DNA of 64,000 nucleotides from a virus. The notes beneath the pieces were generated by a model that was not told the DNA's origin, ran no database searches, and saw only the letters and a program-made list of their open reading frames with translations. Below, one piece after another: positions 12,122 through 54,817 of this stretch. The DNA is taken from IMG/VR virus record IMGVR_UViG_3300044522_000126, positions 2,492-66,491 of that record. One strand, given 5' to 3'. How positions within the stretch are numbered: position 1 is the first letter of the stretch; each line of letters opens with the position of its first letter. The position numbers and the translations under genes are program-made.

Positions 12122-12436
12122 ATGGCTTCAATTATCAATGCGAGTATTAATCTTAACGAAATTCCAAAGCACAAAATTATTGATGGAAAAAAAGGTAAAT
12201 ATCTTCCTATTACCATTACAATAAATGACGAATGTGATAACTTTGGAAACCAAGGTCCTATAACAGTTGGACAGACTAAAGAAGAACGAGAGTCTAAAAT
12301 GGCAAAAGTTTATCTCGGTAATGTTAAAGTCTTATGGACAAATGGTCAAAATGTAGCAGTTGCACCTAAAGATGGTCAACAACAAAGCGCTCCAGCAAAA
12401 CGAGCCCCTGCTCCTGTAGATGATCTACCTTTTTAA
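12122..12436 (+). CDS. Single-stranded DNA-binding protein (Bacteroidota phage type)
   Basis: GKKGKYL...D.FGN...YLGN, acidic tail DDLPF; follows ERF and exonuclease. Confidence 0.8.
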   Translation: MASIINASINLNEIPKHKIIDGKKGKYLPITITINDECDNFGNQGPITVGQTKEERESKMAKVYLGNVKVLWTNGQNVAVAPKDGQQQSAPAKRAPAPVDDLPF

Positions 12437-12445
12437 ATAAAAATT

Positions 12446-12648
12446 TAACATCCTGACGGTTGCCTATAACCAACAATTGTTTGAAAGAACTTATGAAATA
12501 GGATAGCGTGTTGATAGTGGTAAACCTCACCAATTGTAATCGATTAAGTTCAAAGGAAGATAAGGACTAGTACGCCTGTGACGAACACGACGAATTCAGG
12601 ATTTCCCATAGTAGCCCCATTACAAACCAGAGTGCAACAGGGATGTTA
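12446..12648 (+). ncRNA. Candidate ~200-nt multi-pseudoknot ncRNA
   Basis: ORF-free GC-enriched island closed by taacatcc/ggatgtta plus a T run; several internal crossing complementarities. Confidence 0.55.
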
Positions 12649-12670
12649 TTTTTTTTTAAAATATAATTGT

Positions 12671-12814
12671 ACCTATAGCGCTTCCCGTAAGATCAGCCTT
12701 TAGGTCTTTTTTTTAAGTGGCGTTAGGCGGCACCGCTCGAGAGGTTACAAATAAGAATCGCCTTTTACATAGTGTGGTTGCAAGCCTTCGGTCCCAACTG
12801 CCCTATGGCACACT
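12671..12814 (+). ncRNA. Three further small structured elements
   Basis: accta..taggt + T run (12671-12714); aggcgg..tcgcct (12725-12763); agtgtg..cacact enclosing gttg/caac (12771-12814). Confidence 0.45.
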
Positions 12815-12825
12815 TTAGATAGTTA

Positions 12826-12848
12826 GACCCCACAAGTTGGGGTTTTTC
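12826..12848 (+). terminator. Rho-independent terminator-like hairpin
   Basis: gacccca-caagt-tggggtt followed by ttt. Confidence 0.65.
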
Positions 12849-12880
12849 TATCTATAATTAGTAACAATTAAACTAATCAA

Positions 12881-14602
12881 ATGCAAGTAAACAATACAGA
12901 GATCAATGGATTCTTGATTGATACATTCAATCGATATGGTCTTGAAGAAGGTAAAACACAAGGCGTTTGTCCTCTGTGTTCTTCTGATAGAAAACCTAAG
13001 AATGAGAAAGCTAAATGTGCTTCTTATGATTGGGAACGTGGTCTTGGAACTTGTCATAATTGTAATAAATCATTTCAGTTACATACTTATCAACGTAAAG
13101 GTTCTGGTGAAAAGGTTTATATTAAACCACCTCCTAAAGAACAAGTTGAAGAAATGCAAATAAGTGAACCTGTAGTTAATTGGTTTGCTACTAGAGGTAT
13201 TTCTAAAGAAACTCTTTATGAATTACAAATATCCGAGGGAAAAGAATTTATGCCTCAAACAGGTAAGGAAGAAAATGCTATACACTTTAATTACTTTGTT
13301 GGAAATGAATTAGTAAATGTAAAATACCGTGATGGTCACAAACACTTTAAACTATTCAAAGGTGCTGAAAAAGTTTTTTATAATATTGACAGCATTGTGG
13401 GTTTTGAATATTGTGTTATTGTTGAAGGCGAAATGGATGTTTTAGCTTTACATGAAGCTGGAGTTACTAATGTTGTTTCTGTTCCTAATGGAGCAACATT
13501 AAATACAAATAACTTAGAATATCTAGATAGTTGTATAGATTATTTTGATGATAAAGAAAAGATTATATTAGCAGTAGATTCTGATGCTGCTGGTCAAGCA
13601 TTGCAAGCAGAATTAATTCGTAGATTAGGTTCAGAAGTTTGTTATTTAGCATCGTTTGAAGACTGTAAAGATGCTAATGAGTACTTATTAAAGTATGGTA
13701 AAGAAAAGTTGTCTCAACGTATATCACAAGCAAGACCTGTTCCGTTAGAGAACGTTAAAACTTTTAAAGACATTGAAGATGATGTTACAGATTTTGTTAG
13801 AAACGGGTTTAAACCAGGATTTCAAGTTGGATTGGATAACTTTGATAGTATATTCTCTACTTATACCGGTCAGTTTATCACTGTTACTGGTATTCCTTCT
13901 TCGGGTAAATCTGACTTCGTTGATCAAATGGTTGTTGGTTATAATGCTAAATATGGTTGGAAGACTGCATTTGCTTCTCCTGAAAATCAACCAACTTACT
14001 TACATGCTCATAAGTTAATGCGTAAAACCTGGGGTGATATGCCTTCGCCTGAAGAAATTCACGGAGATAAATGGAACCAAGTAGCAGGTCATGTAAATGA
14101 CAGTTATTATTTTATAGATATGGAACGTTATACATTAGAGTCTGTTCTTAGAAAAGGTGCTGAACTAGTTAAACGTAAAGGTATTAAATGTTTAGTTATA
14201 GATCCATTTAATAAAGTAAGAGCACAAGATGCTTCTGGTGATGTTAATGTTTATACATTAGAATATCTGCAACAGATAGAAATATTTGCCAAAAAATACG
14301 ATGTATTAGTTATAGTAGTAGCGCATCCAACTAAAATGTACAAAGACAGAGATGGTAAAATAGAAGAACCTACAATGTATAACATTAAAGGTGGTGGCGA
14401 ATGGTACGATGCATCTTATCACGGTTTGTTAGTCCATAGAGATTATGAAACAAAAACAGTTAAATGTAAGGTTCTTAAAGTCAAGTTTCAAAACTTAGGT
14501 GAGAATGGCGCTGAAGCACATTTCAAATGGGAACCACGTTCTGGATGTTTTATACCTCAACAACCACCAGATATGTCTGATAGTAAAATGCCATGGGAAT
14601 AA
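12881..14602 (+). CDS. T7 gp4/Twinkle-like DNA primase-helicase
   Basis: Zn finger CPLC...CHNC, TOPRIM VEGEMD and DSDAAG, KDANE, SF4 Walker A GIPSSGKS, LVIDPFN. Confidence 0.95.
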   Translation: MQVNNTEINGFLIDTFNRYGLEEGKTQGVCPLCSSDRKPKNEKAKCASYDWERGLGTCHNCNKSFQLHTYQRKGSGEKVYIKPPPKEQVEEMQISEPVVNWFATRGISKETLYELQISEGKEFMPQTGKEENAIHFNYFVGNELVNVKYRDGHKHFKLFKGAEKVFYNIDSIVGFEYCVIVEGEMDVLALHEAGVTNVVSVPNGATLNTNNLEYLDSCIDYFDDKEKIILAVDSDAAGQALQAELIRRLGSEVCYLASFEDCKDANEYLLKYGKEKLSQRISQARPVPLENVKTFKDIEDDVTDFVRNGFKPGFQVGLDNFDSIFSTYTGQFITVTGIPSSGKSDFVDQMVVGYNAKYGWKTAFASPENQPTYLHAHKLMRKTWGDMPSPEEIHGDKWNQVAGHVNDSYYFIDMERYTLESVLRKGAELVKRKGIKCLVIDPFNKVRAQDASGDVNVYTLEYLQQIEIFAKKYDVLVIVVAHPTKMYKDRDGKIEEPTMYNIKGGGEWYDASYHGLLVHRDYETKTVKCKVLKVKFQNLGENGAEAHFKWEPRSGCFIPQQPPDMSDSKMPWE

Positions 14603-20368: not shown

Positions 20369-23300
20369 TTATTTTAATTCTGGCATAACCAATCCTCCGC
20401 CACCTTTTAACTCAGGTATTTTTAAAGTTCCTTGTTGATTCATTTGAACAGGTGCTGATTGACCTTCTCCTAAATTCCATTCAGTATAACCCATTACGAA
20501 AGCTACTCTTTGCCAAGTTTGGTATTCGTCATCTAAAGCGTTTTTAATATTCTGCATTTTTTGATACATTCTATCGGCAGGTAAATTAAAAGTAAGAGAT
20601 GTTAAAGATGTCAAAGCTTCTATCGCATACGTATTTGACAAACTAAATCCTTCATATTCTATTTCAGCAGCGTTATATTCTACTGCTTTATAAGCCTTAA
20701 TAAAACTTCTTAGTTTTATACCTATAGAAGGCGAAATGTTTGCTAATTCTGCCGCGACATCTCCATAACCTTTAGGATCACCGCTTTTTTCGTACCATTT
20801 TACTAAAGCATTTTTAACGGTGGTTAACATTACACCTGTCAAACCAGTACCTCTTATTAAAGTATCCATAGCTCCGTTTAGCATTCTCCATTTAGCTTGA
20901 TCGTATTTACCTTCTTTTTGTTCTTCATCATCGTCAAAAAGTAAGGCGAATAAAGCATTTTGTAAAAAGTTAAACATTAAGTTCTGAATTGTAGAATAAT
21001 ATACTATTTTAGCTACATTATTTGGAACACTTCCTCTTCCTTTCGCTATATCAATAAAAGATTTTTTTATTATCCTAGAATACTGAAATGGTGTATTCAT
21101 AAACGATAGAAGCAACCTCCCTTTTGTACTAGCTTGATTAGCTGATATTTTAGAAACGTCGGCAGATTGTTGTGATATTTCTGATGTTTCATAGAAATCA
21201 CGCATTGTAATCTTTTCAGCCTCATCTTGTGAATAACCTTGTTTTAAATAAGTGTTAATTCTATTTCTGTAAAAACCTGCACCACCAAACGCTATCGCAA
21301 AACTATCCATAACTCTTGTAGGAGTAAATCCTTGTTTTAAGAACCAGTAATTAGCAGCTTTGAACTTATCCATTAGTGTATTGTTTCTAGGATCATTCAT
21401 TAACTGAGCAAACTCTGCTTCTGCAACATCATTCATTAAACCAGATCTCCTGTCTTTAAGATAATTAGAATTCCATATTGTTAAGAAATCTTTAGTGTAT
21501 TGTTTTATATTAAGTAACGCTAACCCAGCTTTTACAACGTTGTTATCTCCAGTATTTATATAGTTGATACCACCGATGACTTGTAACAAAGCAGATCTAG
21601 TATTCCAGAACATCGTAACAGCGGTTGATCCATTTATCCAATTTAAAAGACCATCAGAAGCGCCTTCAGCTCTGTTACTACCAGTTTTCATTCTGTATAA
21701 CATGTTTTCTAGAGCTTTAGAATATTTTCTACCATATAAAGCTTCTATCTTGCTCATGTTTTGTTTAGAGAAGATTTTATCAACATTAGTTTGCCAAACG
21801 CCTAAATACTTAGTTCTGTTTGACTTCGATATAACATTGTTAATATCTCCAACTACACTACCAAATCCCCAGTTATGATCTGGTTCAGTATAACCATTAG
21901 GTTGTTTAGATAATAAAGAAACGTCTTGAGCAAAATCTCTTAATCGTTTATCTTTTCTAACTAACTCTTTTAAATGCCATAGATCTTTTTTATCTAATCC
22001 AGGCACTTCGTAACCAGCACTATTCCAAAGATAAACCCTAACAGCTTGATCTACTAAGTAACCACCGTAACCAGAATCTTGCTTAAGTTCTTTACTTATA
22101 CCTTTATACTTTTTATTTATTAAGTCTTTCCAGTCTTTGTACATAGTCTGTCTAGACTTCATAACGTTTAACATGGCTTCACTATAAGGTTTTAGTAAAT
22201 TATCAACTAAGAAATCCATTTGGTCTTGACCTTGTTGACCTTTACCAGAACCTAAAGTGTATAGCAAACCTAAGAAATCCTCATCTTCAGGTGGCAAATA
22301 TATGTCGTACTTACCTATGTTCTTACCTAAGTTCTTAGCAGTCTCAGGAGAGAAAGTTTCTGAAGCTTCTACACCTTTATTTTGCTCTATGATTTCGTTC
22401 ATTCCTTGCTCAAGGTTATTATTTAACCTCATTCTTTCTTGAACTTTATCTGACTTAAAGTCTAATGCATCTAAAACTTGTTTTGTCAAAGGTCCTTCTG
22501 CATTCTTTTTAACTCTAAATTCAAAATCATTATATCCTTCTGCTACTTTTTGAATTATAAAATAAGCAGTTGATTTGTCTGACATTTTAGATCTACTAGG
22601 TACTTTAAAGGTTATTTTACCGCCTTGAACTTCTTGTAATTGTCTTTTTAATTCTTTTTTCTTTACTTTATCAGTTTCTTTTTCTATTTTTTGATTTAAC
22701 TTTTCAGTCTCTTCTGTTTCAGCATAAGTTGCTGTTTTTGCTCTTTCAATAGCGTTGTCAATGTCTCTAGCAACTAACCATTGTTTACTAAATGGAAGTC
22801 CTTCTAAGAAGTTTGATAGTTTACCGTTTTCTTCTTCAGCTAAACTAAACTTTATTATGTCTGGTTTGTTACTAATTTTTTTTGTTATAGAAGTTTTAGG
22901 CATGTTTCCAAACACAATAACGGGTGTTCCTTCTATTACACCGTCTTTATCATATATATCTTCTTGACCAATATCCCAACTTAGATTTCCTTTTATAGTG
23001 GCCCAATCAATCCAATCATTTAGTATTTCGTTGGCTTGGCTTGTTTTTATTATATCTCTTAAATCTGCTCTAAAAATTCCATTATTATTGTTTTTTATTT
23101 CTTCTACAGCTTTTGGATATTTTTTCTTTATTATTTCGTGAAAATTACCAACGTCGTTAATGTCTGGTATTATTATCGCGTTAGACAAATCTTTAACTTT
23201 AGTTTCGTACATAACACCATCACCCCAGTCACCCACGGTATCATCATCAACATAAAACCACAACGCTTTCATATCGTCGTCTCTAAAAGTTCTATCTAAT

Positions 23301-26300
23301 GATTCTGACCCAGAATGATATAAAGTATGGTTTTTTAGTTTGTCTTGAAACTCTATATATTTTTTAGAGCTAGTTAAACCTTTAAATTTTTCTTTAAACT
23401 CTTTATTTTCTTTAGTTTCTGCTAAACTAAACTTAACAATATCACTTTTACCTTTAGACATGTCTTTTAGAACCTCTGCTCTTAACACATCGTCTTTTAA
23501 ACTATTATACAAGTTTACATTTCTATCTGCTACCCTGTCCAAGAAGTCTGGTTGTCTAAGAAGTCTTCTAGCTTCTTGCAAAACCATAACATCTCCAAAC
23601 AATTCCATTAAAGCGGTTCTTCTATCAAAATAAGCTGTTGGAACTAATCCTTTACCAGTTTTTTCATTAAGTTCTGGTTCTTCTAGTTTAGCAATTTGTT
23701 TACTAGCATTATCACCTCCATATATCTTAAGAATACGAGTTGCTTCTTCTACACCATAATATGATTGCAAGAATTTAGTTCTAGTTATATCACCTATTTT
23801 TCTTAAGTTTCCTTTTTCGTCAAATTCTTTTAATCTAGGTGGTAGTTTTTTAGAAGCATAACTTGATTCGTTAGTAACTGGATCTACCGGGTGATTTATT
23901 ACGTCGTAAAGTAATTGCCATTCGCGATACATTAACGATTCTATTTCTGGACCATTTTTAAAAGTCATTCTCCTTGCCATTGTTTTTGACATGGTAGAAA
24001 GTCTTTCTTTAAAATTTCTATATTCTAGAGTTTCAATGTTTGGAGATCTTAATATTTCACGAGCAACCTCATCAGTAATGATTTTAGCAGGTGTATCTTG
24101 AATAGAAAGAGCTTCAAATGTATTTACTGTCATTCCTGTAGAAAGATCATAAGATTTGAAAGATTTTAAACTTTTAAGTTCTTCTTTTTCTTCGTATGTT
24201 AAGTCTTTTTTATTCTGTAATTCTAATCCTCTTTCTAGATCTTTTAATTGTCTTTTTAATTCTACTATTTTAGCTGGATCAGTTTCTGTTCTTAGTTTTT
24301 TATTAGCAGCAATAGACATGTCTGATACTTCTGTAACAAAGTTACTACCAAATGGTACAGTTTCAATATCTATAGGTTTACCTTGTTCGTCTACGAAATT
24401 AAACACTGGATCACTAAGTAATACAGCTAGTCTACTTTGCTCCTCTTCAAAGTCTTGTTCTGCTTCATACACAGAATCACCTTCGTCAGCTAAATAACTA
24501 GAATCACCACCAAAACCATCTACAATAGTAGATTCTTTAAACATTTCTCCTTCGATGTCTTCCGTAAACTTTTGTGTTGTAACGTTTCCAGTTTTAAGAG
24601 CATCTTTCATCTTATTGCTAAGTTGAGAATTTATCCAAGCATTAAGGTCGTCGTTTTCTTTTACAATACCTTTTTTACCTTGGTAACCTTTTTCGTCTTG
24701 CGCTTGTACTTTGTCTTTGAATTCTTTACTATTAGGATCTAATCCTTTTGATTCTAACTCTTGTTTGTATTCTTCTCTTTTAGCAAGAAACTCTTTGTTA
24801 AAGTTTCTAACATGAGGTATCATAGCTATTTGTGTTTCACTTATGAAATCATACTCACTAAAATCAGGTAGATTAAAATAACCTAAACCTTTTGCTTTTC
24901 CTTTTATTATATATTCATATTCAGTAAGAATATCGTACAACGTAGTTTTTCTATCGCTGTTTATATCTTTACTCCAAGTATCTTTATTATAGGTTTTATT
25001 TATATCTTTCTTAATATCTTCTGAAGATTTTCTATCACCTAAAGAGAATTTAGGTCCTGATGTTGCTGCTTGTGACCGCACTACATTTCCACCGATTTCT
25101 TTTGACAATGCTTCTTTGTTTATATTAGCGCCTTTTGTACCCATTTTAGTAAAGGCTTTACCCCATTTACCTGATTTAGCACTTGCATTGTAATCTTTTA
25201 TAAAATTATAAACATCTTTACCAGAGTCAAACTTTATATCTCTAATGCCTAAATATTGCAAAACACGTCTAATAGTATCGCCAAGTTTTGTAAACGTACC
25301 TTCATTATAAGTAATATATCCAAGACGTAAAGCATCAGAATATAAAGTCATCACTTCCTCCCATCTATTACCTTCAGACTTAGCAACATCAGCATCATGT
25401 GCTTCTTGAGTTTTCTCTCCTGCTTCAAGTTCTTTTAAACTTTCTACTTTTTGTTGTCTAGATCTATCAGCATAAAGATTTAATCTTTCAATAAATTTGT
25501 CTGGAGTTACTCTTTCATCAGATCCTTTTTCTCTAAGAGCTTTATCAAGTTTTATCAATTCGCCACCTAAAGAAGCTCCTAATAACATTTGAGCTTGTGG
25601 ACTATTCTTTATAGTTTTTTGAAGTAAACCATGTAGGAATTCGTGTTGTTGTATACCTGAATCACCAAGTTTAAATGCTACTTCTTCATTTTGTAATATA
25701 ACTTGAAAACCTTCTGGTATTAAATCTGGATCTTTAGAATATTTCTTTAAAACATCTGAAGTAAGAGCAAATCCACCTTCTTGAGACCAATCATCCGCAA
25801 CGTCTTCTGGAACGTTTAATTCATTAACAAGATATGTTTTTAAGTCTTCAGAAGTAGAAAAGTTTTTCATTTCGATGTCTTTTACAACACCTTTTTTAAT
25901 AGCTGCTTCTATACTTTTATTTTCCAAATCCATTTGGTCTTTAAAATATATTTTAGCAATGTTTTCTCTTATACCGTCTATTTTTTCATCTATTTGTGGA
26001 TGAAAAGCTTTATCTGTAGTTTCTTTCTCGTCTTGAAGTTTTGTAACTTTGTCTAACTCCCTCATTATAGGCATCGCACCGTCAGCAGATACATTTTTAG
26101 GTACTTTATTTACATTGTTAGCATAAATATCTACATCTTTCTTTAAGTTATCTGCTTGTTCTGCTGTAAACACTTCTTTAGTTACTAAACCATCTATGAT
26201 CTTAGTAAACTCTTTTTTATTTTTAGCTAAAGTACTAAGAGAAGTAAGGTTGTCTGTCGCTTGGTCTCCAGCATGGAAGTTAGGTAGTTTTGCTTTTGAT

Positions 26301-28471
26301 ATTAAACCAGAAGAAATAAATGAAAGTATAGACGTGTTCATGAAATCATCACCGCTCATTACTTCGTTCATAATCTTTTTACCAGCGTCTTTATTAGTCA
26401 TCATATTGACACCAATCTCTCCGCCTTGCTGTATGTTTTCTTGAACAACTTCTTTACCACCTTCTTCAGCAAATTCAACTAGATTCCTAGGTGTATTTTT
26501 TATTATATCATCAATATAGTTTACAAACCCAGTTTTACCTGTTTTAGTATATTGCTCTATAGCTTTTTTAATTATGTTTTTAGAACCAAATAAATTCTCA
26601 ACTAATTTCGTTTGTGGATTTATAACACCGGTAGTTCCGTATAACACTGCCATTCTTTGTCCAGCAGCACTAGCTAATTCAAAAGCATCTTTGTCGTTTA
26701 TACCGTTATCTCTAGCCGCTTTTAAAGTGTCTTCATATCCTTGAGCATAACCCATAGTTCCTTGAGCTATCATGGAATATCCAGTAGCTCTGTCTAAAGG
26801 TACTTTTCTTAATAGTTTTGAAGAGTCGTTTAATAATGAGGTAAATCCACTTGCCGGTTTTACCACATTTGATGCGTGTCTTATTTCTCCAGCAATAGTT
26901 CCTAATTTACCAACTCCACGTGTGATAGCGGCTTGTAATAACATATCTGCCATAACGCCTGAAGTTTGAACAGCAGCTCCTTGAGTGCTGAATGTCCAAT
27001 CTGAAGGTCCATATTTTGCTTCTTCTACTAGTTTTTTCTGTAATGTATCGTTAAATAAATCTGTTACACGTATCTTAGCCTCTGCGTCATATATTTGTCC
27101 TTTAGAGTCTACTATGTATTTAGTCCCATCATAGTTAACTGTCTTGCCAGATACGTACGCGATGCCTCTATCGTCTCTTCTAATAAACTTATTTTCTTCA
27201 TCTAACATTCTAATACCTTCGGCGGTACCTGTCATTCCTAGTGCTTCGTAACCAGAAGCAGTCATTTGAGCAGTTCTATCTATCACAGCGCTCCAACCTG
27301 CTCTACCAATCTTTTCAGCAGTATCCCAAGAGAAGAAATCTGTTCCTCCTTTTTTAGACTCTTCGTATAATTTAGCGTTTTCTTTGTCTTTGTTTTTTAG
27401 TTTTTTAGTTATTGTTGGAAAATAGTTTTCAACATATTTAGCCATACCATTAGGGTCAAATATATCGTTATTTACTATTTCTTTTTTATCTCTAACTCCT
27501 TGTATTATTTCTAATTCTTGGTTTAAGTCTTGTCTATTAACATCACGAGATTTCATTTCGTCCATATATGTTAATAACATTTTCTTTCTCGCTAATTCTC
27601 TAGCAAGACCTATATCATATCCTCCAAAACTTCTACCATCTCCTGTAAATAGACCTTCTGCTTCTTTCTTTTTAAAATCGTCTTTATATCCTTTTTTATT
27701 TAAGTAGCCATCAAAGTCTTGTGGGTTTATACCAAAAGCTTCTAGTTCTTTTGATTTATAATTTCTTTCTATAAAGTCATCTTCAACTTGCTCTTCTTCT
27801 ACTGGATTTAAAAACTGTTGGTTTTTTGAAGAATAATATAGATAAGGATGTATTAAATCAGAATCTGTTTCTCTAATTTTTTCTTTTAACTTTGCTACCT
27901 TAAATTTAGTGTCATAACCAGCTTCTCCAGTTATTGGATTGTCAGCAAAGTTTTCAACGAAATCTTTCATATCATTTTTTGACCCAATTGATTTACCTTT
28001 TATTTTTTGCGCAATTCTTTGTCCAGGAAGTTTAACTTTTTCTTCACTAACAAGGTCAAATTTTATTCTTTTATTAAAGTCTTTGTCAACTGCAGGGTTT
28101 AATAGTATTTCAAAATCTTTTAAATCTCTATAGTTTTTTTCTTGAGCGTCAATAGGACTACCGTACATGTCTTTAACATCGGTAGTTGATCTAGGAGTTG
28201 CAGAAGGAGGAGGTAACATTCCTCTTTTCTGCATTGTTTCAAGATCATTTTCTGCAGGTAATCTATATTTTTTCGGTTCCAACGAACCATTTTCCGAACT
28301 GGAATCCGTACTTAGTGCCTGATTCTTTTTTGGCGCTACAGTTGCACTCTTTGCAACGCCTTTTTGCTTTTTTGCTCCAGTGTTTTTTGATAAAAAACTA
28401 ATCTTTTCAAAATCAGAAAAATTAGATATGTCTACTTGTGATCCGTCTGATAAAATATATATTTCTTCCAT
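20369..28471 (-). CDS. Giant (2700 aa) internal/ejected virion polyvalent protein
   Basis: Last gene of the virion operon after two smaller internal proteins; HEFLH zincin motif, sigma-2-like segment, LYHSG ART-like segment, hydrophobic C-terminal region. Confidence 0.8.
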   Translation of the reverse strand: MEEIYILSDGSQVDISNFSDFEKISFLSKNTGAKKQKGVAKSATVAPKKNQALSTDSSSENGSLEPKKYRLPAENDLETMQKRGMLPPPSATPRSTTDVKDMYGSPIDAQEKNYRDLKDFEILLNPAVDKDFNKRIKFDLVSEEKVKLPGQRIAQKIKGKSIGSKNDMKDFVENFADNPITGEAGYDTKFKVAKLKEKIRETDSDLIHPYLYYSSKNQQFLNPVEEEQVEDDFIERNYKSKELEAFGINPQDFDGYLNKKGYKDDFKKKEAEGLFTGDGRSFGGYDIGLARELARKKMLLTYMDEMKSRDVNRQDLNQELEIIQGVRDKKEIVNNDIFDPNGMAKYVENYFPTITKKLKNKDKENAKLYEESKKGGTDFFSWDTAEKIGRAGWSAVIDRTAQMTASGYEALGMTGTAEGIRMLDEENKFIRRDDRGIAYVSGKTVNYDGTKYIVDSKGQIYDAEAKIRVTDLFNDTLQKKLVEEAKYGPSDWTFSTQGAAVQTSGVMADMLLQAAITRGVGKLGTIAGEIRHASNVVKPASGFTSLLNDSSKLLRKVPLDRATGYSMIAQGTMGYAQGYEDTLKAARDNGINDKDAFELASAAGQRMAVLYGTTGVINPQTKLVENLFGSKNIIKKAIEQYTKTGKTGFVNYIDDIIKNTPRNLVEFAEEGGKEVVQENIQQGGEIGVNMMTNKDAGKKIMNEVMSGDDFMNTSILSFISSGLISKAKLPNFHAGDQATDNLTSLSTLAKNKKEFTKIIDGLVTKEVFTAEQADNLKKDVDIYANNVNKVPKNVSADGAMPIMRELDKVTKLQDEKETTDKAFHPQIDEKIDGIRENIAKIYFKDQMDLENKSIEAAIKKGVVKDIEMKNFSTSEDLKTYLVNELNVPEDVADDWSQEGGFALTSDVLKKYSKDPDLIPEGFQVILQNEEVAFKLGDSGIQQHEFLHGLLQKTIKNSPQAQMLLGASLGGELIKLDKALREKGSDERVTPDKFIERLNLYADRSRQQKVESLKELEAGEKTQEAHDADVAKSEGNRWEEVMTLYSDALRLGYITYNEGTFTKLGDTIRRVLQYLGIRDIKFDSGKDVYNFIKDYNASAKSGKWGKAFTKMGTKGANINKEALSKEIGGNVVRSQAATSGPKFSLGDRKSSEDIKKDINKTYNKDTWSKDINSDRKTTLYDILTEYEYIIKGKAKGLGYFNLPDFSEYDFISETQIAMIPHVRNFNKEFLAKREEYKQELESKGLDPNSKEFKDKVQAQDEKGYQGKKGIVKENDDLNAWINSQLSNKMKDALKTGNVTTQKFTEDIEGEMFKESTIVDGFGGDSSYLADEGDSVYEAEQDFEEEQSRLAVLLSDPVFNFVDEQGKPIDIETVPFGSNFVTEVSDMSIAANKKLRTETDPAKIVELKRQLKDLERGLELQNKKDLTYEEKEELKSLKSFKSYDLSTGMTVNTFEALSIQDTPAKIITDEVAREILRSPNIETLEYRNFKERLSTMSKTMARRMTFKNGPEIESLMYREWQLLYDVINHPVDPVTNESSYASKKLPPRLKEFDEKGNLRKIGDITRTKFLQSYYGVEEATRILKIYGGDNASKQIAKLEEPELNEKTGKGLVPTAYFDRRTALMELFGDVMVLQEARRLLRQPDFLDRVADRNVNLYNSLKDDVLRAEVLKDMSKGKSDIVKFSLAETKENKEFKEKFKGLTSSKKYIEFQDKLKNHTLYHSGSESLDRTFRDDDMKALWFYVDDDTVGDWGDGVMYETKVKDLSNAIIIPDINDVGNFHEIIKKKYPKAVEEIKNNNNGIFRADLRDIIKTSQANEILNDWIDWATIKGNLSWDIGQEDIYDKDGVIEGTPVIVFGNMPKTSITKKISNKPDIIKFSLAEEENGKLSNFLEGLPFSKQWLVARDIDNAIERAKTATYAETEETEKLNQKIEKETDKVKKKELKRQLQEVQGGKITFKVPSRSKMSDKSTAYFIIQKVAEGYNDFEFRVKKNAEGPLTKQVLDALDFKSDKVQERMRLNNNLEQGMNEIIEQNKGVEASETFSPETAKNLGKNIGKYDIYLPPEDEDFLGLLYTLGSGKGQQGQDQMDFLVDNLLKPYSEAMLNVMKSRQTMYKDWKDLINKKYKGISKELKQDSGYGGYLVDQAVRVYLWNSAGYEVPGLDKKDLWHLKELVRKDKRLRDFAQDVSLLSKQPNGYTEPDHNWGFGSVVGDINNVISKSNRTKYLGVWQTNVDKIFSKQNMSKIEALYGRKYSKALENMLYRMKTGSNRAEGASDGLLNWINGSTAVTMFWNTRSALLQVIGGINYINTGDNNVVKAGLALLNIKQYTKDFLTIWNSNYLKDRRSGLMNDVAEAEFAQLMNDPRNNTLMDKFKAANYWFLKQGFTPTRVMDSFAIAFGGAGFYRNRINTYLKQGYSQDEAEKITMRDFYETSEISQQSADVSKISANQASTKGRLLLSFMNTPFQYSRIIKKSFIDIAKGRGSVPNNVAKIVYYSTIQNLMFNFLQNALFALLFDDDEEQKEGKYDQAKWRMLNGAMDTLIRGTGLTGVMLTTVKNALVKWYEKSGDPKGYGDVAAELANISPSIGIKLRSFIKAYKAVEYNAAEIEYEGFSLSNTYAIEALTSLTSLTFNLPADRMYQKMQNIKNALDDEYQTWQRVAFVMGYTEWNLGEGQSAPVQMNQQGTLKIPELKGGGGLVMPELK

Positions 28472-31487: not shown

Positions 31488-33116
31488 TTAATATGATGAT
31501 TCTACATACTCTGCTGATACAGCAAATAACTCTGCTTTTTGATTTAAATTAACATCTACGGTAGCATTTGCACAGTAGAAAGTAGCTGTAGCGTAAAAAC
31601 CTTTAACTCCTGATATACTTTGTCCCCATACTACTTCGGCTTCTGAAGATGAAGATATATTAAGTAGATTTGCAAAGTATTTATTTTCTTTCTTTTTAAA
31701 TCTATTTTCAAATAACTGATCTTGTAATCCAATTAAAGTAGAAGCAGTAAAACTTTGATCTACAGGAGCCGTTATGTCTGTTTCTGTGTAAAATTCTGAC
31801 AAACTCCAATTTGAAGTTCCTTCATAGTTTACAGTTAAAAAAGATTTAGATTGAGAAACAGAAGGATTAAATATAACAGTAACCTTAGAAGGATAATGGA
31901 AATTGTAGTAACTTGCTTTTTGAACTGCTGTAGAATAATGTTTCCATATACTACCGTTTTTAAAAGTATAAAAATTATTTCTTAAACTTACACCTTGATT
32001 TGGAATATAACTATGTAAACTAGTCCACCCAGTATTATCTTCGTCAAAACTTAAGGTAACACTATTTGGTTCATCTATGTAAAATATATTGTCAAGATCA
32101 GAGATTGTAGGTTGTATAGATACTACGTACTGTTTAGAATGAATATCCCATAAACCATATATAAATCCATTTGTTAAATTTGTATTAGATAGTTTATCTC
32201 TAAAATAATCAAACATACCGTATGCTGAAATCTCAGTTATACCGTCTTGTGATAAACGTAATACTACATTTTGAAAACCATCTACAAAGTATTTTCTATA
32301 ACCATATACTGCGAAACTTTCAGGATGTGTTCCTATACCGTAGTTACCGGCATAAGATTGTATTTGACCTATAACCTGAGATCCAGACGTAGTCATTGGA
32401 GATCCATCAGCAGAATAAACTGCGTCTTTATCTATCAATGCTCTACTTACTTTTAACTCTTGAAATATTATTAAATTTGTATCTTCTGCATATAATTTTT
32501 GTATACTTCCTTGAGAAGGATCTATTGTTCTAGTTATATCTTCAGCTACAGAGAATTGATTTGTATTATTAATTCCTGTTCTAGAATTAAATACACCTGA
32601 ATAAATCATTGTATTGAATAAATGTTGTCTTTGAGGTGAGTCTTCGACTATGTATGCTTTTACACCAAAGTCTACAGATGTGTTGTTATAACCTCCTCTA
32701 ATTCTAGCTTCTTCTATATACCAATCATGTAGATAACTAAAGTTACCAGCAGAAAGATAACGACCTGGTAAAAAATTATAATCAATTATTTTACCAAATT
32801 CTAATACTACTCCAGACCCAATATCGGTTGTTAGTGGGTTAAGAAGTTTAAAGTAAGTATACGTAGCGTCAGATGTTATGTTTGCTATTACGTTTGTACT
32901 AACTATAGATGTATATGTCCAACTTATTTGTTGACCAGGTCCGTATTTTTCTAAGTCAATAGGGTTTATTAGTAATACTTTCAAAAAAACATCACCTGTA
33001 GACGAAGCGCCAACAGTTAATGGTCCAGTTCCAATAGTAGGACTAACTTGTGTTATGTTATTCATTTTTTTTAACCAAAATGAATTAAAATATTTTATCT
33101 CTATAGTAGCTGCCAT
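31488..33116 (-). CDS. Tail stabilization/nozzle protein (C-terminal-type part)
   Basis: YSGVFNSRTGINNTNQFS, GSIQKL, GIGTHPESFA, RLSQDGITEIS, GWTS resemble crAss-like/P22 gp10 stabilization proteins. Confidence 0.7.
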   Translation of the reverse strand: MAATIEIKYFNSFWLKKMNNITQVSPTIGTGPLTVGASSTGDVFLKVLLINPIDLEKYGPGQQISWTYTSIVSTNVIANITSDATYTYFKLLNPLTTDIGSGVVLEFGKIIDYNFLPGRYLSAGNFSYLHDWYIEEARIRGGYNNTSVDFGVKAYIVEDSPQRQHLFNTMIYSGVFNSRTGINNTNQFSVAEDITRTIDPSQGSIQKLYAEDTNLIIFQELKVSRALIDKDAVYSADGSPMTTSGSQVIGQIQSYAGNYGIGTHPESFAVYGYRKYFVDGFQNVVLRLSQDGITEISAYGMFDYFRDKLSNTNLTNGFIYGLWDIHSKQYVVSIQPTISDLDNIFYIDEPNSVTLSFDEDNTGWTSLHSYIPNQGVSLRNNFYTFKNGSIWKHYSTAVQKASYYNFHYPSKVTVIFNPSVSQSKSFLTVNYEGTSNWSLSEFYTETDITAPVDQSFTASTLIGLQDQLFENRFKKKENKYFANLLNISSSSEAEVVWGQSISGVKGFYATATFYCANATVDVNLNQKAELFAVSAEYVESSY

Positions 33117-53013: not shown

Positions 53014-53273
53014 TATAAAACAACTACTACGTCTTGAATCTTTATAACATGATATGTTTCTTTACCAAGTTCTATTTTATGTCCAGCGTGTCTGTCATAG
53101 AATATCACGTCTCTTTCTTTGATACCAACTACGTTTTCTCCTATTGACATTACTTGCGCTTCTATATATCTAATATCTTCTCGTTGACTTTCAGCAAGCA
53201 TTAATCCACCTTTAGTTTTAGTGGTGCCTTCTTTTACTTTCTGTATGATTAAATTTATACCTACTGCTTTCAT
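53013..53273 (-). CDS. groES: Co-chaperonin GroES
   Basis: KTKGGLML mobile loop, VMSIGENV.GIKE.D, VIK.QDVV; adjacent to GroEL. Confidence 0.9.
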   Translation of the reverse strand: MKAVGINLIIQKVKEGTTKTKGGLMLAESQREDIRYIEAQVMSIGENVVGIKERDVIFYDRHAGHKIELGKETYHVIKIQDVVVVL

Positions 53274-54817
53274 TATGCTCTTAAGTTATTAATTACACAA
53301 TCAGTTGACAATATGGTAGTTGCTACAGAAGCAGCGTTTCTTAAAGCGCTTTTTGTAACTAGTAAAGGATCAATTATGCCTGCTTTAATCATGTCAACTG
53401 TTTCGCCAGTTATAACATTGAGACCATACCCAACTTTTGATATTGTTTCTATAGGAGCGTGTTCGATACCTGCATTATCTAATATAGTTTTAAACGGTGC
53501 TCTAATAGAATCTAATAATATTTCTTCACCTACAGAATAAGAACTAATGTTATGAGAAGCGTTTAACAATGCAATTCCACCACCAGCAACAATTCCTTCT
53601 TTAATAGCAGCTTTTGTAGCACATATAGCGTCTTCTATTCTATCTGCTTTTTCTTTTAATTCTATCTCAGAGTTAGCACCAACTTTAACAACAGCTATCT
53701 TAGCAGTTAAACGCGCTAATCTTTTTTCTAACTTTATAACTTGTGGAGTAGTATTGTTTTCTAATAAAGATTTTTTAACATCTTTAATTATATCTAATAC
53801 TTCTTCAGAAGTTTCTCCAACGTGAAGAATTGTTTCTTCATGGTTAGTAATACTCTTAATACATGCACCTAACATTTCAGGTTGTATTAAATCTAAGTCA
53901 TCGCCTAAGTCTTCATTTATTAATACTGCATTAGTTAATAATGCTAGATCATCGAATATCTCTTTTCTGTTTATTCCAAAAGTAGGTGCATTAATTACGT
54001 TTACTTTTAAATTACCTTTAGACTTGTTCATTGCCAATGTGGTTAAAACCACTTGTTCCATATCGGCTATTATAAGTAACGATTTATTGTTTTTTATAAT
54101 ATACTCTAATACAGATTGAATTTGTCTTATAGATTGTATAGGAGATTCTACTAATAATACTAAAGGATTATCTAACTCTGCTGTTTTATTTTTTTGATTT
54201 GTTACGAAATGAGAGTTTGTCAAACCCATACCGCATTGTACTCCTTCTACTACCTGTAAACTACATTCTGGATCTGAAGATGCTTCCATCATAACAATCC
54301 CAGTATTACCTACAGATCTAAAAGCGTCTCCTACTATCTTACCTAATTCAGCATCATTATTTGTAGATATAGTAGCTACTTGATCTAACATGTCTCCTTC
54401 TACAATTATTGAATATTTTTCAAGGTATTCTATAACTTTATCAACTGCTTTATTTATTCCTTCTTTTATCTCTCTTGTATTTGGATTTTCTACAGCATAA
54501 GCATTTTTTAAAATAGCATGCGCCAAAACAGTTGCTGTAGTAGTTCCGTCTCCAGCTTCTCTAACAGTCTTTCTAGCTGCTTCTTTTAAAAGTGTTGCTC
54601 CCATGTTTTCTACTGGATCTAATAAAATAATAGAATCAGCAACAGATACTCCGTCTTTTGTAATTATAGGTCTTCCAGAAGAATCTTCTAAAAGAACACA
54701 TTTACCACTTGCTCCAAGAGTAGAACTAACTGCTCTAGATAATTTTTCTATCCCAGCAAATACTTTATCACTTGCTTCTTTTCCGAAACTTAAATTTTTG
54801 ACTATAGCGTCTGACAT
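53273..54817 (-). CDS. groEL: Chaperonin GroEL
   Basis: ITKDGVSVA, ENMGA, AGDGTTTATVLA, EK.DRIEDA, EGIVAGGG, GIIDP. Confidence 0.97.
   Translation of the reverse strand: MSDAIVKNLSFGKEASDKVFAGIEKLSRAVSSTLGASGKCVLLEDSSGRPIITKDGVSVADSIILLDPVENMGATLLKEAARKTVREAGDGTTTATVLAHAILKNAYAVENPNTREIKEGINKAVDKVIEYLEKYSIIVEGDMLDQVATISTNNDAELGKIVGDAFRSVGNTGIVMMEASSDPECSLQVVEGVQCGMGLTNSHFVTNQKNKTAELDNPLVLLVESPIQSIRQIQSVLEYIIKNNKSLLIIADMEQVVLTTLAMNKSKGNLKVNVINAPTFGINRKEIFDDLALLTNAVLINEDLGDDLDLIQPEMLGACIKSITNHEETILHVGETSEEVLDIIKDVKKSLLENNTTPQVIKLEKRLARLTAKIAVVKVGANSEIELKEKADRIEDAICATKAAIKEGIVAGGGIALLNASHNISSYSVGEEILLDSIRAPFKTILDNAGIEHAPIETISKVGYGLNVITGETVDMIKAGIIDPLLVTKSALRNAASVATTILSTDCVINNLRA

What the first reader, a model, noticed from the sequence alone, without database searches (positions are those of the whole stretch)
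12446..12657. About 200-nt candidate ncRNA with several mutually crossing helices between SSB and primase-helicase
Seen: closing stem taacatcc(12446)/ggatgtta(12641) followed by a T run; alternative pairing atcctga(12450)/tcaggat(12596); hairpin ggtt/aacc whose loop cctat(12463) complements atagg(12498); gaactta(12487)/taagttc(12545); cgtgtt(12507)/aacacg(12584); ttgtaat(12534)/attacaa(12619). Several of these cross, implying pseudoknots or a conformational switch. Inference: a complex, possibly unclassified RNA (ribozyme, scaffold or anti-defence RNA). Some short complementarities may be chance.
Basis: partly seen in the sequence, partly recalled or inferred. Interest (0 to 1): 0.7.

Follow-up and report, generated by a model that had tools for sequence, protein, structure and literature searches.

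The report
New pseudoknotted RNA from phage tRNA islands
The 200-base stretch is a real gene for a highly structured RNA with two pseudoknots, from a family that matches no catalogued RNA family and that phages usually carry inside their tRNA gene clusters; what it does is unknown.

Summary
The finding holds. Window 12446-12657 is one member of a conserved structured-RNA family of about 195-215 nt. I found it in 38 IMG/VR viral contigs and 6 metagenome contigs. It was absent from 28 bacterial candidate loci and from 151 sampled genomes of one phylum.

The other two are not conserved and are chance.

On a 28-row alignment, 93.7% of cells pair, against 82.5% in shuffles. 26 of 57 pairs change on both sides, against 16.4 in shuffles (0 of 500 shuffles reach either value).

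Three divergent members give no Rfam 15 match, even at E<=10.

In 26 of 30 scanned loci the RNA lies among phage tRNA genes on the same strand, in some only 1-4 nt from the neighbouring tRNAs. In this crAss-like phage it is a sporadic, free-standing insert between the SSB and primase-helicase genes; 0 of 80 relatives have it.

A 201-nt metatranscriptome contig equals 12446-12644 exactly.

The closest known kinds are ROOL and GOLLD RNAs and T4 RNAC/RNAD, which are phage RNAs of unknown function near tRNA islands. I found no homology to the two classes tested (Rfam for ROOL/GOLLD, the family model for T4).

The parts
12434..12445 (+). A-rich 5' flank with a -10-like TAAATA (12434-12439). It may hold the promoter and can pair with the 3' T-run to lengthen the closing stem.
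   Evidence: Read from the sequence. Inverted repeats I4 and I5 link 12431-12453 with 12641-12661. Comparable A-rich flanks lie upstream of other members. The sigma-70 scan did not call a promoter here, so the promoter is inferred only.
12446..12453 (+). P1 closing stem, 5' strand
   Evidence: Helix 1: 11 pairs, 10 of them changed on both sides, 99% of cells paired. RNAalifold also predicts it.
12458..12471 (+). Pseudoknot 1, stem S1 (ggtt 12458-12461 / aacc 12468-12471). Its loop holds the P2 5' strand, cctat 12463-12467.
   Evidence: Helix 2: 5 pairs, 2 changed on both sides, 92% paired. This helix was not in the covariance model, so the alignment was not fitted to it.
12479..12490 (+). Optional hairpin P2a, gttt-GAAA-gaac (GNRA tetraloop)
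   Evidence: Present only in the window (with L109) and L102, where the stem differs but still pairs. It is deleted in the other members.
12498..12502 (+). P2 3' strand (atagg), pairing with 12463-12467
   Evidence: Helix 3: 6 pairs, 3 changed on both sides, 92.7% paired.
12507..12512 (+). Pseudoknot 2, 5' strand (cgtgtt)
   Evidence: Helix 4: 7 pairs, 2 changed on both sides. Column pair 80/175 reads CG 14, UA 11, UG 1. This helix was not in the covariance model.
12517..12530 (+). P3 hairpin (gtgg 12517-12520 / tcac 12527-12530)
   Evidence: In the RNAalifold register, column pair 91/107 reads GC 36, UG 5, UA 2. In my own register the helix scored 87.5% paired, because the window clade is shifted by one column in A3.
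12534..12540 (+). P4 5' strand (ttgtaat)
   Evidence: Helix 6: the five inner pairs are paired in every row and 3 of them change on both sides. The two outer pairs hold only in the window clade.
12553..12573 (+). Invariant single-stranded core: AGATA 12558-12562, GGACT 12564-12568, GTAC 12570-12573
   Evidence: Invariant in 25 of 25 distinct full-length rows and outside every modelled helix.
12575..12600 (+). P6 hairpin: cctg 12575-12578 / cagg 12597-12600, inner pairs 12582-12583 / 12591-12592, and a 7-nt loop at 12584-12590 whose aacacg forms pseudoknot 2
   Evidence: Helices 8 and 9: 6 pairs, 5 changed on both sides, 100% paired. RNAalifold also predicts them.
12604..12618 (+). Conserved joining region (TCCC, GT, G, C, C invariant). 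An optional GNRA hairpin is inserted here in 6 distinct rows.
   Evidence: (helix 10).
12619..12625 (+). P4 3' strand (attacaa)
   Evidence: helix 6.
12641..12648 (+). P1 closing stem, 3' strand (ggatgtta)
   Evidence: helix 1.
12649..12657 (+). T9 run: the likely transcript end, and/or the pairing partner of the A-rich 5' flank
   Evidence: Sequence. A T-run follows P1 in every free-standing member. The terminator scan did not call it, because the stem is long-range.

Best explanation
SHOWN. Window 12446-12657 (+ strand) is a gene for a stable, independently folding non-coding RNA. It belongs to a phage-borne family that matches nothing in Rfam 15.

The fold has a closing stem P1. It has an H-type pseudoknot near the 5' end (S1 plus P2). 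It has hairpins P3 and P6 and a long-range helix P4. A second pseudoknot joins the strand after P2 to the 7-nt loop of P6. Hairpins capped by GNRA tetraloops come and go between members. About 49 invariant nucleotides lie outside the helices.

Most members lie inside the tRNA gene arrays of large phages, on the tRNA strand. Some are only 1-4 nt from the neighbouring tRNAs, so they would be cut out of a common precursor by the tRNA-processing enzymes (inferred).

In this crAss-like phage the gene is a free-standing accessory insert. It has an A-rich upstream flank and a T9 run (promoter and terminator inferred).

INFERRED. The RNA acts in trans through its three-dimensional shape rather than through an antisense stretch. 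It would be a small counterpart of the ROOL/GOLLD kind of phage RNA found near tRNA islands. It would bind a partner linked to tRNAs or translation, or assemble with itself.

My odds:
- real transcribed structured-RNA family: about 0.95
- trans-acting particle that works by shape: about 0.6
- partner linked to tRNA or translation: about 0.35
For: Homologues with the same boundaries:
- 5 of 5 loci from one 18-mer scan of viral contigs
- 38 of 42 loci from a gapped core pattern
- 6 of 6 metagenome loci
- 7 of 7 loci found through a neighbouring protein
- a second, independent core pattern returned the same 38 contigs and no others

Covariation:
- 93.7% of 1300 cells pair, against 82.5 +/- 0.5 in shuffles (0 of 500 reach it)
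- 26 of 57 pairs change on both sides, against 16.4 +/- 1.8 (0 of 500)
- with the 3' partners slid by 1-3 columns, only 33-46% of cells pair and 2-9 pairs change on both sides
- both pseudoknot helices covary although they were not in the model that made the alignment
- G-U pairs are frequent (pair 16/31 GU in 15 rows, 18/29 in 14, 93/106 in 19). These would be A-C mismatches on the other strand, so the + strand is the folded one.

Other evidence:
- RNAalifold independently recovers P1, P3, P4 and P6.
- The stretch is not coding: stops occur in all six frames.
- G+C is 40%, against 32% for the window.
- tRNA context: 26 of 30 loci and 4 of 9 loci have tRNA genes nearby, always on the RNA's strand (strands).
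- In L129, L136, L146, L147, L158 and L163 the RNA lies 4 nt after tRNA-Arg and 1-2 nt before tRNA-Ser.
- There is one copy per genome in 5 of 5 phage records of about 300 kb.
- Expression: four RNA libraries from four studies hold it. X19 has a 201-nt contig equal to 12446-12644 with 0 differences and nothing else.
- ROOL and GOLLD are described as phage or prophage RNAs 'often near tRNA islands' with unknown function (PMC12286853, passages read).
Against: No result here shows any function, partner or activity.
- The window copy's folding energy is no better than shuffles.
- The family is narrow and very alike: 82 of about 190 positions are invariant. Several helices therefore rest on few changes, and the rows fall into about three clades, so cells are not independent events.
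- The RNA evidence comes from assembled contigs only. They cannot show strand, ends or level, and DNA carry-over in RNA libraries is possible. X20 covers the neighbouring SSB gene too.
- Not every copy is near tRNAs: 4 of 30 and 5 of 9 loci have none within 1-1.5 kb, and the window itself has no tRNA gene.
- No conserved neighbouring protein was found.
- The promoter and terminator scans called nothing at the element's ends.
- Homo-oligomerisation or tRNA binding is argued by analogy alone.
Confidence: 0.6

Rival explanations
1. It is an anti-defence RNA. A phage accessory RNA would act as a decoy or sponge for a host immune component, such as a tRNA-targeting nuclease or a signalling nucleotide. 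It would be kept in the same islands as the phage tRNAs that counter anticodon nucleases. This is a more specific version of the main reading, not a contradiction of it.
For: Distribution is sporadic: 0 of 80 relatives by primase carry it. Almost identical cores occur in unrelated phages of 66 kb and about 300 kb. In the window it sits in a hypervariable, cassette-like spacer. It has no detected counterpart in bacteria: 0 of 28 candidate loci and 0 of 151 sampled genomes. One paper in a search listing reports a viral tRNA neutralising the PARIS defence system (PMC11464382, listing and abstract only).
Against: No defence or anti-defence gene was identified next to any copy. No mimicry of a known RNA was detected by Rfam or ARAGORN. 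This reading rests on context alone.
Confidence: 0.2
2. It is a ribozyme or a ligand-binding RNA. The invariant junction nucleotides would form an active site or pocket, and the GNRA hairpins would be peripheral struts, as in large ribozymes and riboswitches.
For: There are 49 invariant nucleotides outside helices, two pseudoknots and optional GNRA-capped hairpins at three sites.
Against: No known ribozyme or riboswitch family matches at E<=10. It is not placed as a cis-regulator, because the downstream genes differ. No conserved processing site could be read from the contigs.
Confidence: 0.12
3. It is a DNA-level element: a replication origin, a single-strand initiation signal, or a small mobile element with terminal inverted repeats, located between SSB and primase-helicase.
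For: It lies in the replication module. It is an insertion relative to relatives. Its ends are inverted repeats flanked by A and T runs. HNH endonuclease genes lie near two copies.
Against: It is absent from 0 of 80 relatives' spacers and from 50 of 50 whole relative records searched, so it cannot be the family's origin. No iterons were found. The 'terminal repeats' covary in sequence instead of being conserved (helix 1). There is one copy per genome in 5 of 5 large records and in the window's own record. Most copies lie in tRNA arrays on the tRNA strand. G-U pairs are strand-specific. RNA-library contigs cover it.
Confidence: 0.04
4. It is a cis-acting leader or terminator structure belonging to the SSB or primase-helicase transcript.
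For: It lies between the two genes on their strand and ends in a T-run.
Against: The same RNA has unrelated neighbours elsewhere: tRNAs, an RNA ligase, HNH genes and small ORFs. About 220 nt of other conserved modules and a separate terminator (12825-12845) lie between it and the primase start. Relatives express the same genes without it.
Confidence: 0.04

Closest known systems
ROOL and GOLLD RNAs (large ornate phage/prophage RNAs)
   Same: Both are phage-borne and 'often near tRNA islands', both are rich in pseudoknots, and both have unknown function. GOLLD was first seen in lake and marine metagenomes, and tRNAs sometimes lie inside it (PMC12286853, passages read). Here, 26 of 30 loci have tRNA genes on the same strand, and the RNA has two pseudoknots.
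   Different: This RNA is about 195-215 nt. The paper gives 659 nt for one ROOL and more than 800 nt for many GOLLDs. Rfam 15 gave no match of any kind to the window spacer or to two other members at E<=10; that Rfam holds ROOL and GOLLD models is taken from the paper's methods. Whether this RNA forms homo-oligomers was not testable.
Phage T4 RNAC and RNAD (species 1 and 2 stable RNAs)
   Same: Both are small stable RNAs encoded in a phage tRNA cluster, directly after tRNA-Arg, with a homing endonuclease gene in the cluster. Their roles are reported as unknown (PMC3014915 passage; PMC9697503 passages). In six loci here the RNA also directly follows tRNA-Arg.
   Different: T4 RNAC and RNAD are 139 and 119 nt. 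The family model finds nothing on them: over the 4-kb T4 region with filters off, the best score is 9.9 bits and lies elsewhere. The resemblance is analogy of place, not detectable homology.
tmRNA, and tRNAs interrupted by introns
   Same: These too have paired 5' and 3' ends and H-type pseudoknots and occur among phage tRNA genes (general knowledge, recalled).
   Different: ARAGORN finds no tRNA or tmRNA in the window or at the element in other loci. Rfam gives no match. By eye, the sequence shows no T-arm and no tag reading frame.

Membership tests
Any Rfam 15 family (4227 models) | Covariance-model match at the gathering score, or at least at E<=10 | tested here: not met
   The whole window at gathering threshold gave 0 matches. 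Window 12300-13000 at E<=10 gave three chance hits, none on 12446-12657. L126 and L129 members at E<=10 gave 0 matches.
ROOL / GOLLD | Match to the family's covariance model | tested here: not met
   No Rfam match at all.
ROOL / GOLLD | Length of roughly 600-800 nt or more, with many helices | tested here: not met
   Members are 190-216 nt.
ROOL / GOLLD | Encoded by phages or prophages, often beside tRNA islands | tested here: met
   All carriers are viral or metagenome contigs. 26 of 30 loci and 4 of 9 loci have tRNA genes nearby.
ROOL / GOLLD | Homo-oligomeric RNA-only assembly | not testable with these tools
   This needs native gels, SEC-MALS or cryo-EM of the transcript.
T4 RNAC / RNAD | Sequence or structure homology | tested here: not met
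   Model R1 over the T4 tRNA region with filters off: best score 9.9 bits, and not on rnaC or rnaD.
tRNA / tmRNA | Cloverleaf or tRNA-like domain detectable by ARAGORN | tested here: not met
   no call overlaps the element.
Mobile element with terminal inverted repeats (MITE-like) | Several copies per genome, and end repeats conserved in sequence | tested here: not met
   There is one copy in the window's own record and in 5 of 5 large records. 10 of 11 closing-stem pairs change on both sides.
Replication origin | Conserved in related genomes at the same place; iterons or an AT-rich unwinding region | tested here: not met
   0 of 80 relatives carry it. No repeat family has more than two weak copies. 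The element is richer in G+C than the genome.
Riboswitch / cis-regulatory leader | Constant position upstream of one class of gene | tested here: not met
   Downstream neighbours differ: tRNAs, small ORFs of no known family, a GNAT acetyltransferase, a phrog_839 protein with an RNA ligase, other RNA-like modules.

The most novel reading that the evidence does not exclude
The RNA is a new functional RNA class that acts on or with tRNAs. It could be a compact natural ribozyme or a tRNA-recognising RNA particle. It might assemble through its second pseudoknot between molecules. Phages of different families would exchange it and express it from their tRNA arrays to keep translation running, or to blunt tRNA-directed host defences during infection.
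Probability: 0.15. Interest if true: 0.9.

Novelty: new variant of a known kind. Interest (0 to 1): 0.75.

Why it matters
Phage RNAs that sit in tRNA islands are abundant, elaborate and still without a function; ROOL, GOLLD and T4 RNAC/RNAD are examples. This family is a much smaller example, about 200 nt. It has a well-supported double-pseudoknot fold, sharp boundaries and natural variants with and without peripheral hairpins. That makes it far easier to transcribe, probe, mutate and solve than RNAs of 600-800 nt.

It occurs both inside tRNA arrays of phages of about 300 kb and as a free-standing insert in a 66-kb crAss-like phage. This suggests it works without phage-specific protein partners, so expression in a host alone might reveal a phenotype. 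If it touches tRNA biology or host defence, it would give a handle on why phages place such RNAs among their tRNAs.

Tried and rejected
- Single-sequence folding gave no signal on either strand.
- blastn against GenBank phages found nothing, with the window spacer and with two other members. No cultured phage is therefore known to carry the RNA.
- Whole-record search of 50 of the 80 relatives gave only 14-20-nt chance matches. The first attempt with 80 handles exceeded a limit.
- The scan with the pattern from 12602-12618 added only one locus, L107, which is unrelated G+C-rich DNA.
- The 18-mer scan of genome contigs gave 0 hits. The gapped pattern gave 28 loci in many phyla, none of which is a homologue by nhmmer or by the CM.
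- The CM search of 151 genomes of the phylum of G051 gave 0 matches. G051 is the genome behind L167, whose title says Bacteroidetes. This is a sample only, run with strict filters, and the tool itself warns that an empty answer shows nothing.
- Neighbouring proteins showed nothing shared: mostly no family, two HNH endonucleases, one GNAT, one RNA ligase. Pfam on 55 window ORFs found no RNA-repair or RNA-binding partner.
- A scan of all column pairs for further covariation was swamped by clade structure and gave no new helix. The candidate GGA/UCC helix could not be tested, because the clades are offset by one column in A3.
- Eighteen DNA runs and two further RNA runs hold small shares of the words. 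I did not lay them, so they say nothing about habitat or spread.
- Not used: complex prediction, the protein structure tools and the large protein searches, because no protein partner was in question.
- Seven literature searches found no description of this RNA. Subscription journals and supplements were not searched.

Full report
SETTING. The window is a 66.5-kb virus record with 32% G+C. The finding lies in a 444-nt spacer between two genes. The upstream gene is a small one at 12122-12436 whose product ends in an acidic DDLPF tail; I read it as SSB by recollection, and it has no Pfam hit. The downstream gene is a Toprim/DnaB-type primase-helicase at 12881-14602. ERF recombinase, a PD-(D/E)XK exonuclease, thymidylate synthase and MazG lie around them. 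A crAss-type muzzle domain and a 2700-aa ORF suggest a crAss-like phage. The window has no tRNA gene.

THE OBSERVATION. The region has about twice to four times as many perfect complementary 6- and 7-mers as dinucleotide shuffles; 11 and 10 of 500 shuffles reach the observed counts. Its folding energy is ordinary: z = +0.41 and -0.10 for the two strands. The stretch is not coding, since stops occur in all six frames. Its G+C is 40% against 32% for the window. Rfam 15 gives nothing at gathering scores for the whole window. At E<=10 it gives nothing on the element.

RELATIVES OF THE PHAGE LACK IT. Of 390 viral contigs that encode a related primase-helicase, the best 80 were kept. None of the 80 matches window 12437-12649, although many match the rest of the spacer. 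In the nearest relatives the SSB stop is followed at once by later parts of the spacer or by other short inserts. The spacer is therefore a cassette-like variable region, and the element is an insert in it. Whole-record searches of 50 of the 80 relatives gave only chance matches of 14-20 nt.

THE FAMILY. An 18-mer from the element hit five viral contigs of 10 to 282 kb. All five carry a full-length homologue whose ends coincide with the closing stem.
- Six metagenome contigs also carry it. Two are the same phage as the window. One, L112, is a relative with the RNA in the same spacer but a different closing stem.
- Relatives of an ORF next to one copy led to more divergent members.
- A gapped pattern built from conserved words gave 42 viral loci. 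38 of them are homologues by nhmmer and by a covariance model, at 155-230 bits for full-length matches.
- A second, independent core pattern returned exactly those 38 contigs.
- 12 of the 38 contigs are 150 kb or more, five of them about 306-322 kb.
- Five of five records of 306-322 kb have exactly one copy.
- In genome contigs the 18-mer found nothing. None of the 28 loci that matched the gapped pattern is a homologue.
- A sample of 151 genomes of one phylum gave no match; this is weak evidence.
- GenBank phages gave no blastn match.

STRUCTURE. I gave the model search 76 sources, leaving out loci that duplicate a contig already included. It returned 45 matches, of which one is spurious (13.8 bits). 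The resulting alignment A3 has 28 distinct rows. On A3 the structure I proposed has ten helices:
- P1, the closing stem
- S1 and P2, which together form an H-type pseudoknot
- P3
- P4
- an optional P5
- P6, with two inner pairs
- an optional P7
- pseudoknot 2, between the strand after P2 and the 7-nt loop of P6

The counts are these:
- 93.7% of 1300 cells are standard pairs, against 82.5 +/- 0.5 in shuffles.
- 26 of 57 pairs change on both sides, against 16.4 +/- 1.8.
- The covariation score is 0.253 against 0.101. None of 500 shuffles reaches any of these three values.
- The count of further pair types is not exceptional (75 of 500 shuffles reach it).
- Sliding the 3' partners by 1-3 columns drops pairing to 33-46% and the doubly changed pairs to 2-9.

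The two pseudoknot helices were not part of the model, yet they covary. S1 has 2 of 5 pairs changed on both sides. Pseudoknot 2 has 2 of 7, and one of its pairs reads CG 14, UA 11, UG 1. RNAalifold recovers P1, P3, P4 and P6 on its own. Frequent G-U pairs fix the folded strand as the + strand. The three optional hairpins all end in GNRA tetraloops. 82 positions are invariant in 25 full-length distinct rows, 49 of them outside helices, including AGATA-GGACT-GTAC at 12558-12573.

CAVEATS ON THE STRUCTURE. The rows form about three clades and are very similar, so the counts are cells, not independent events. P3 is offset by one column for the window clade in A3. RNAalifold also proposes an extension of P3 (window 12510-12513 with 12531-12534) that competes with half of pseudoknot 2 and shows no two-sided change. 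A switch is therefore possible but not shown.

Four are confirmed. The other two (12450/12596 and 12487/12545) are not kept in homologues.

CONTEXT.
- Of 30 further loci scanned, 26 have tRNA genes within about 1 kb. In all 26 the tRNAs are on the RNA's strand.
- Of the first nine loci, four have tRNAs nearby.
- In six loci the RNA is 4 nt downstream of tRNA-Arg and 1-2 nt upstream of tRNA-Ser, spaced like one more tRNA.
- Many of these loci carry identical RNA rows and may be the same phage species, so they are not 30 independent cases.
- Other copies have no tRNA nearby. Their neighbours are small ORFs of no family, HNH endonucleases (two loci), a GNAT enzyme, or an RNA ligase.
- No neighbouring protein is shared.

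EXPRESSION. Six RNA libraries held part of the stretch, and I laid four of them, from four studies.
- X19 has one 201-nt contig equal to 12446-12644 with no difference and nothing beyond it.
- X22 has contigs over 12452-12602 and 12593-12767.
- X21 has a variant member.
- X20 has a 2.5-kb contig of a related phage that spans SSB and the RNA.

Contigs cannot give strand, ends or level, and DNA carry-over is possible. This is consistent with a discrete transcript but does not prove one.

COMPARISON WITH WHAT IS KNOWN. ROOL and GOLLD are phage or prophage RNAs 'often near tRNA islands'. They have many pseudoknots and unknown function, and they form RNA-only nanocages (PMC12286853, passages read). 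T4 encodes RNAC and RNAD directly after tRNA-Arg in its tRNA cluster. Their roles are unknown (PMC3014915 and PMC9697503, passages read). The present RNA shares the place and the lack of a known role, but it is much smaller than ROOL or GOLLD. It matches no Rfam model, and its own model finds nothing in the T4 region. Seven literature searches found no description of it. Subscription journals and supplementary files were not covered.

MECHANISM. Shown: a conserved, strand-specific, double-pseudoknot fold; carriage by phages only, in what I searched; placement among tRNA genes; presence in RNA libraries. Inferred:
- Where tRNAs flank it, it is released by the tRNA-processing enzymes.
- In this window it is transcribed from the A-rich flank to the T9 run.
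- It works in trans through its shape, because conservation is concentrated in junctions rather than in one accessible antisense stretch.
- It needs no phage-specific protein, because very different phages carry nearly the same core.

Which partner it binds, whether it multimerises and whether it is catalytic all remain open. My odds are given under the best explanation and its rivals.

VERDICT. It is a new, compact family within the known but unexplained kind of phage RNAs that accompany tRNA islands.

Noticed in passing
window 12708-12784: A second conserved RNA-like module lies just upstream of the primase-helicase gene. Helix 12725-12730 / 12758-12763 pairs in 9 of 9 relatives, with 3 of 6 pairs changed on both sides. 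A candidate helix 12716-12720 / 12733-12737 would make it an H-type pseudoknot, but it does not covary (72-85% paired). There is no Rfam match at E<=10.
   Followed up: partly
window 12650-12712: A short module with TATAAT at 12662-12667, a stretch of about 40 nt and a T-run is 85-98% identical in several relatives (L049, L063, L077, L079, L066, L072). In two of them it is preceded by TGGTATAAT. It may be a small RNA gene with its own promoter.
   Followed up: partly
window 12437-12880 and the same spacer in L001-L080: The SSB-primase spacer is hypervariable and built of cassettes. Relatives carry other inserts of 45 to about 570 nt in different combinations, and all end in the same terminator hairpin (window 12825-12845).
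   Followed up: partly
window 53273-54817 (-): A phage-encoded Cpn60/GroEL-type chaperonin (PF00118, E = 1.8e-53).
   Followed up: no
window 20369-28471 (-) and 31488-33116 (-): A 2700-aa ORF with no Pfam match, and a protein with a crAss muzzle C-terminal domain (PF25729). These suggest a crAss-like phage from fresh water. That the large ORF is a virion RNA polymerase is my recollection of crAss-like phages and was not tested.
   Followed up: no
L102 1668-3016; L149 280-882; L099 2391-3017: Genes next to some copies of the RNA: a phrog_839 protein followed by an RNA ligase (L102), and HNH endonucleases (L149, L099). T4 likewise has the homing endonuclease segB inside its tRNA cluster.
   Followed up: no
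L098 1611-1994 and relatives L117-L121: A 127-aa ORF of no known family directly follows the RNA in one lineage of large phages. It is 77% identical between contigs.
   Followed up: no
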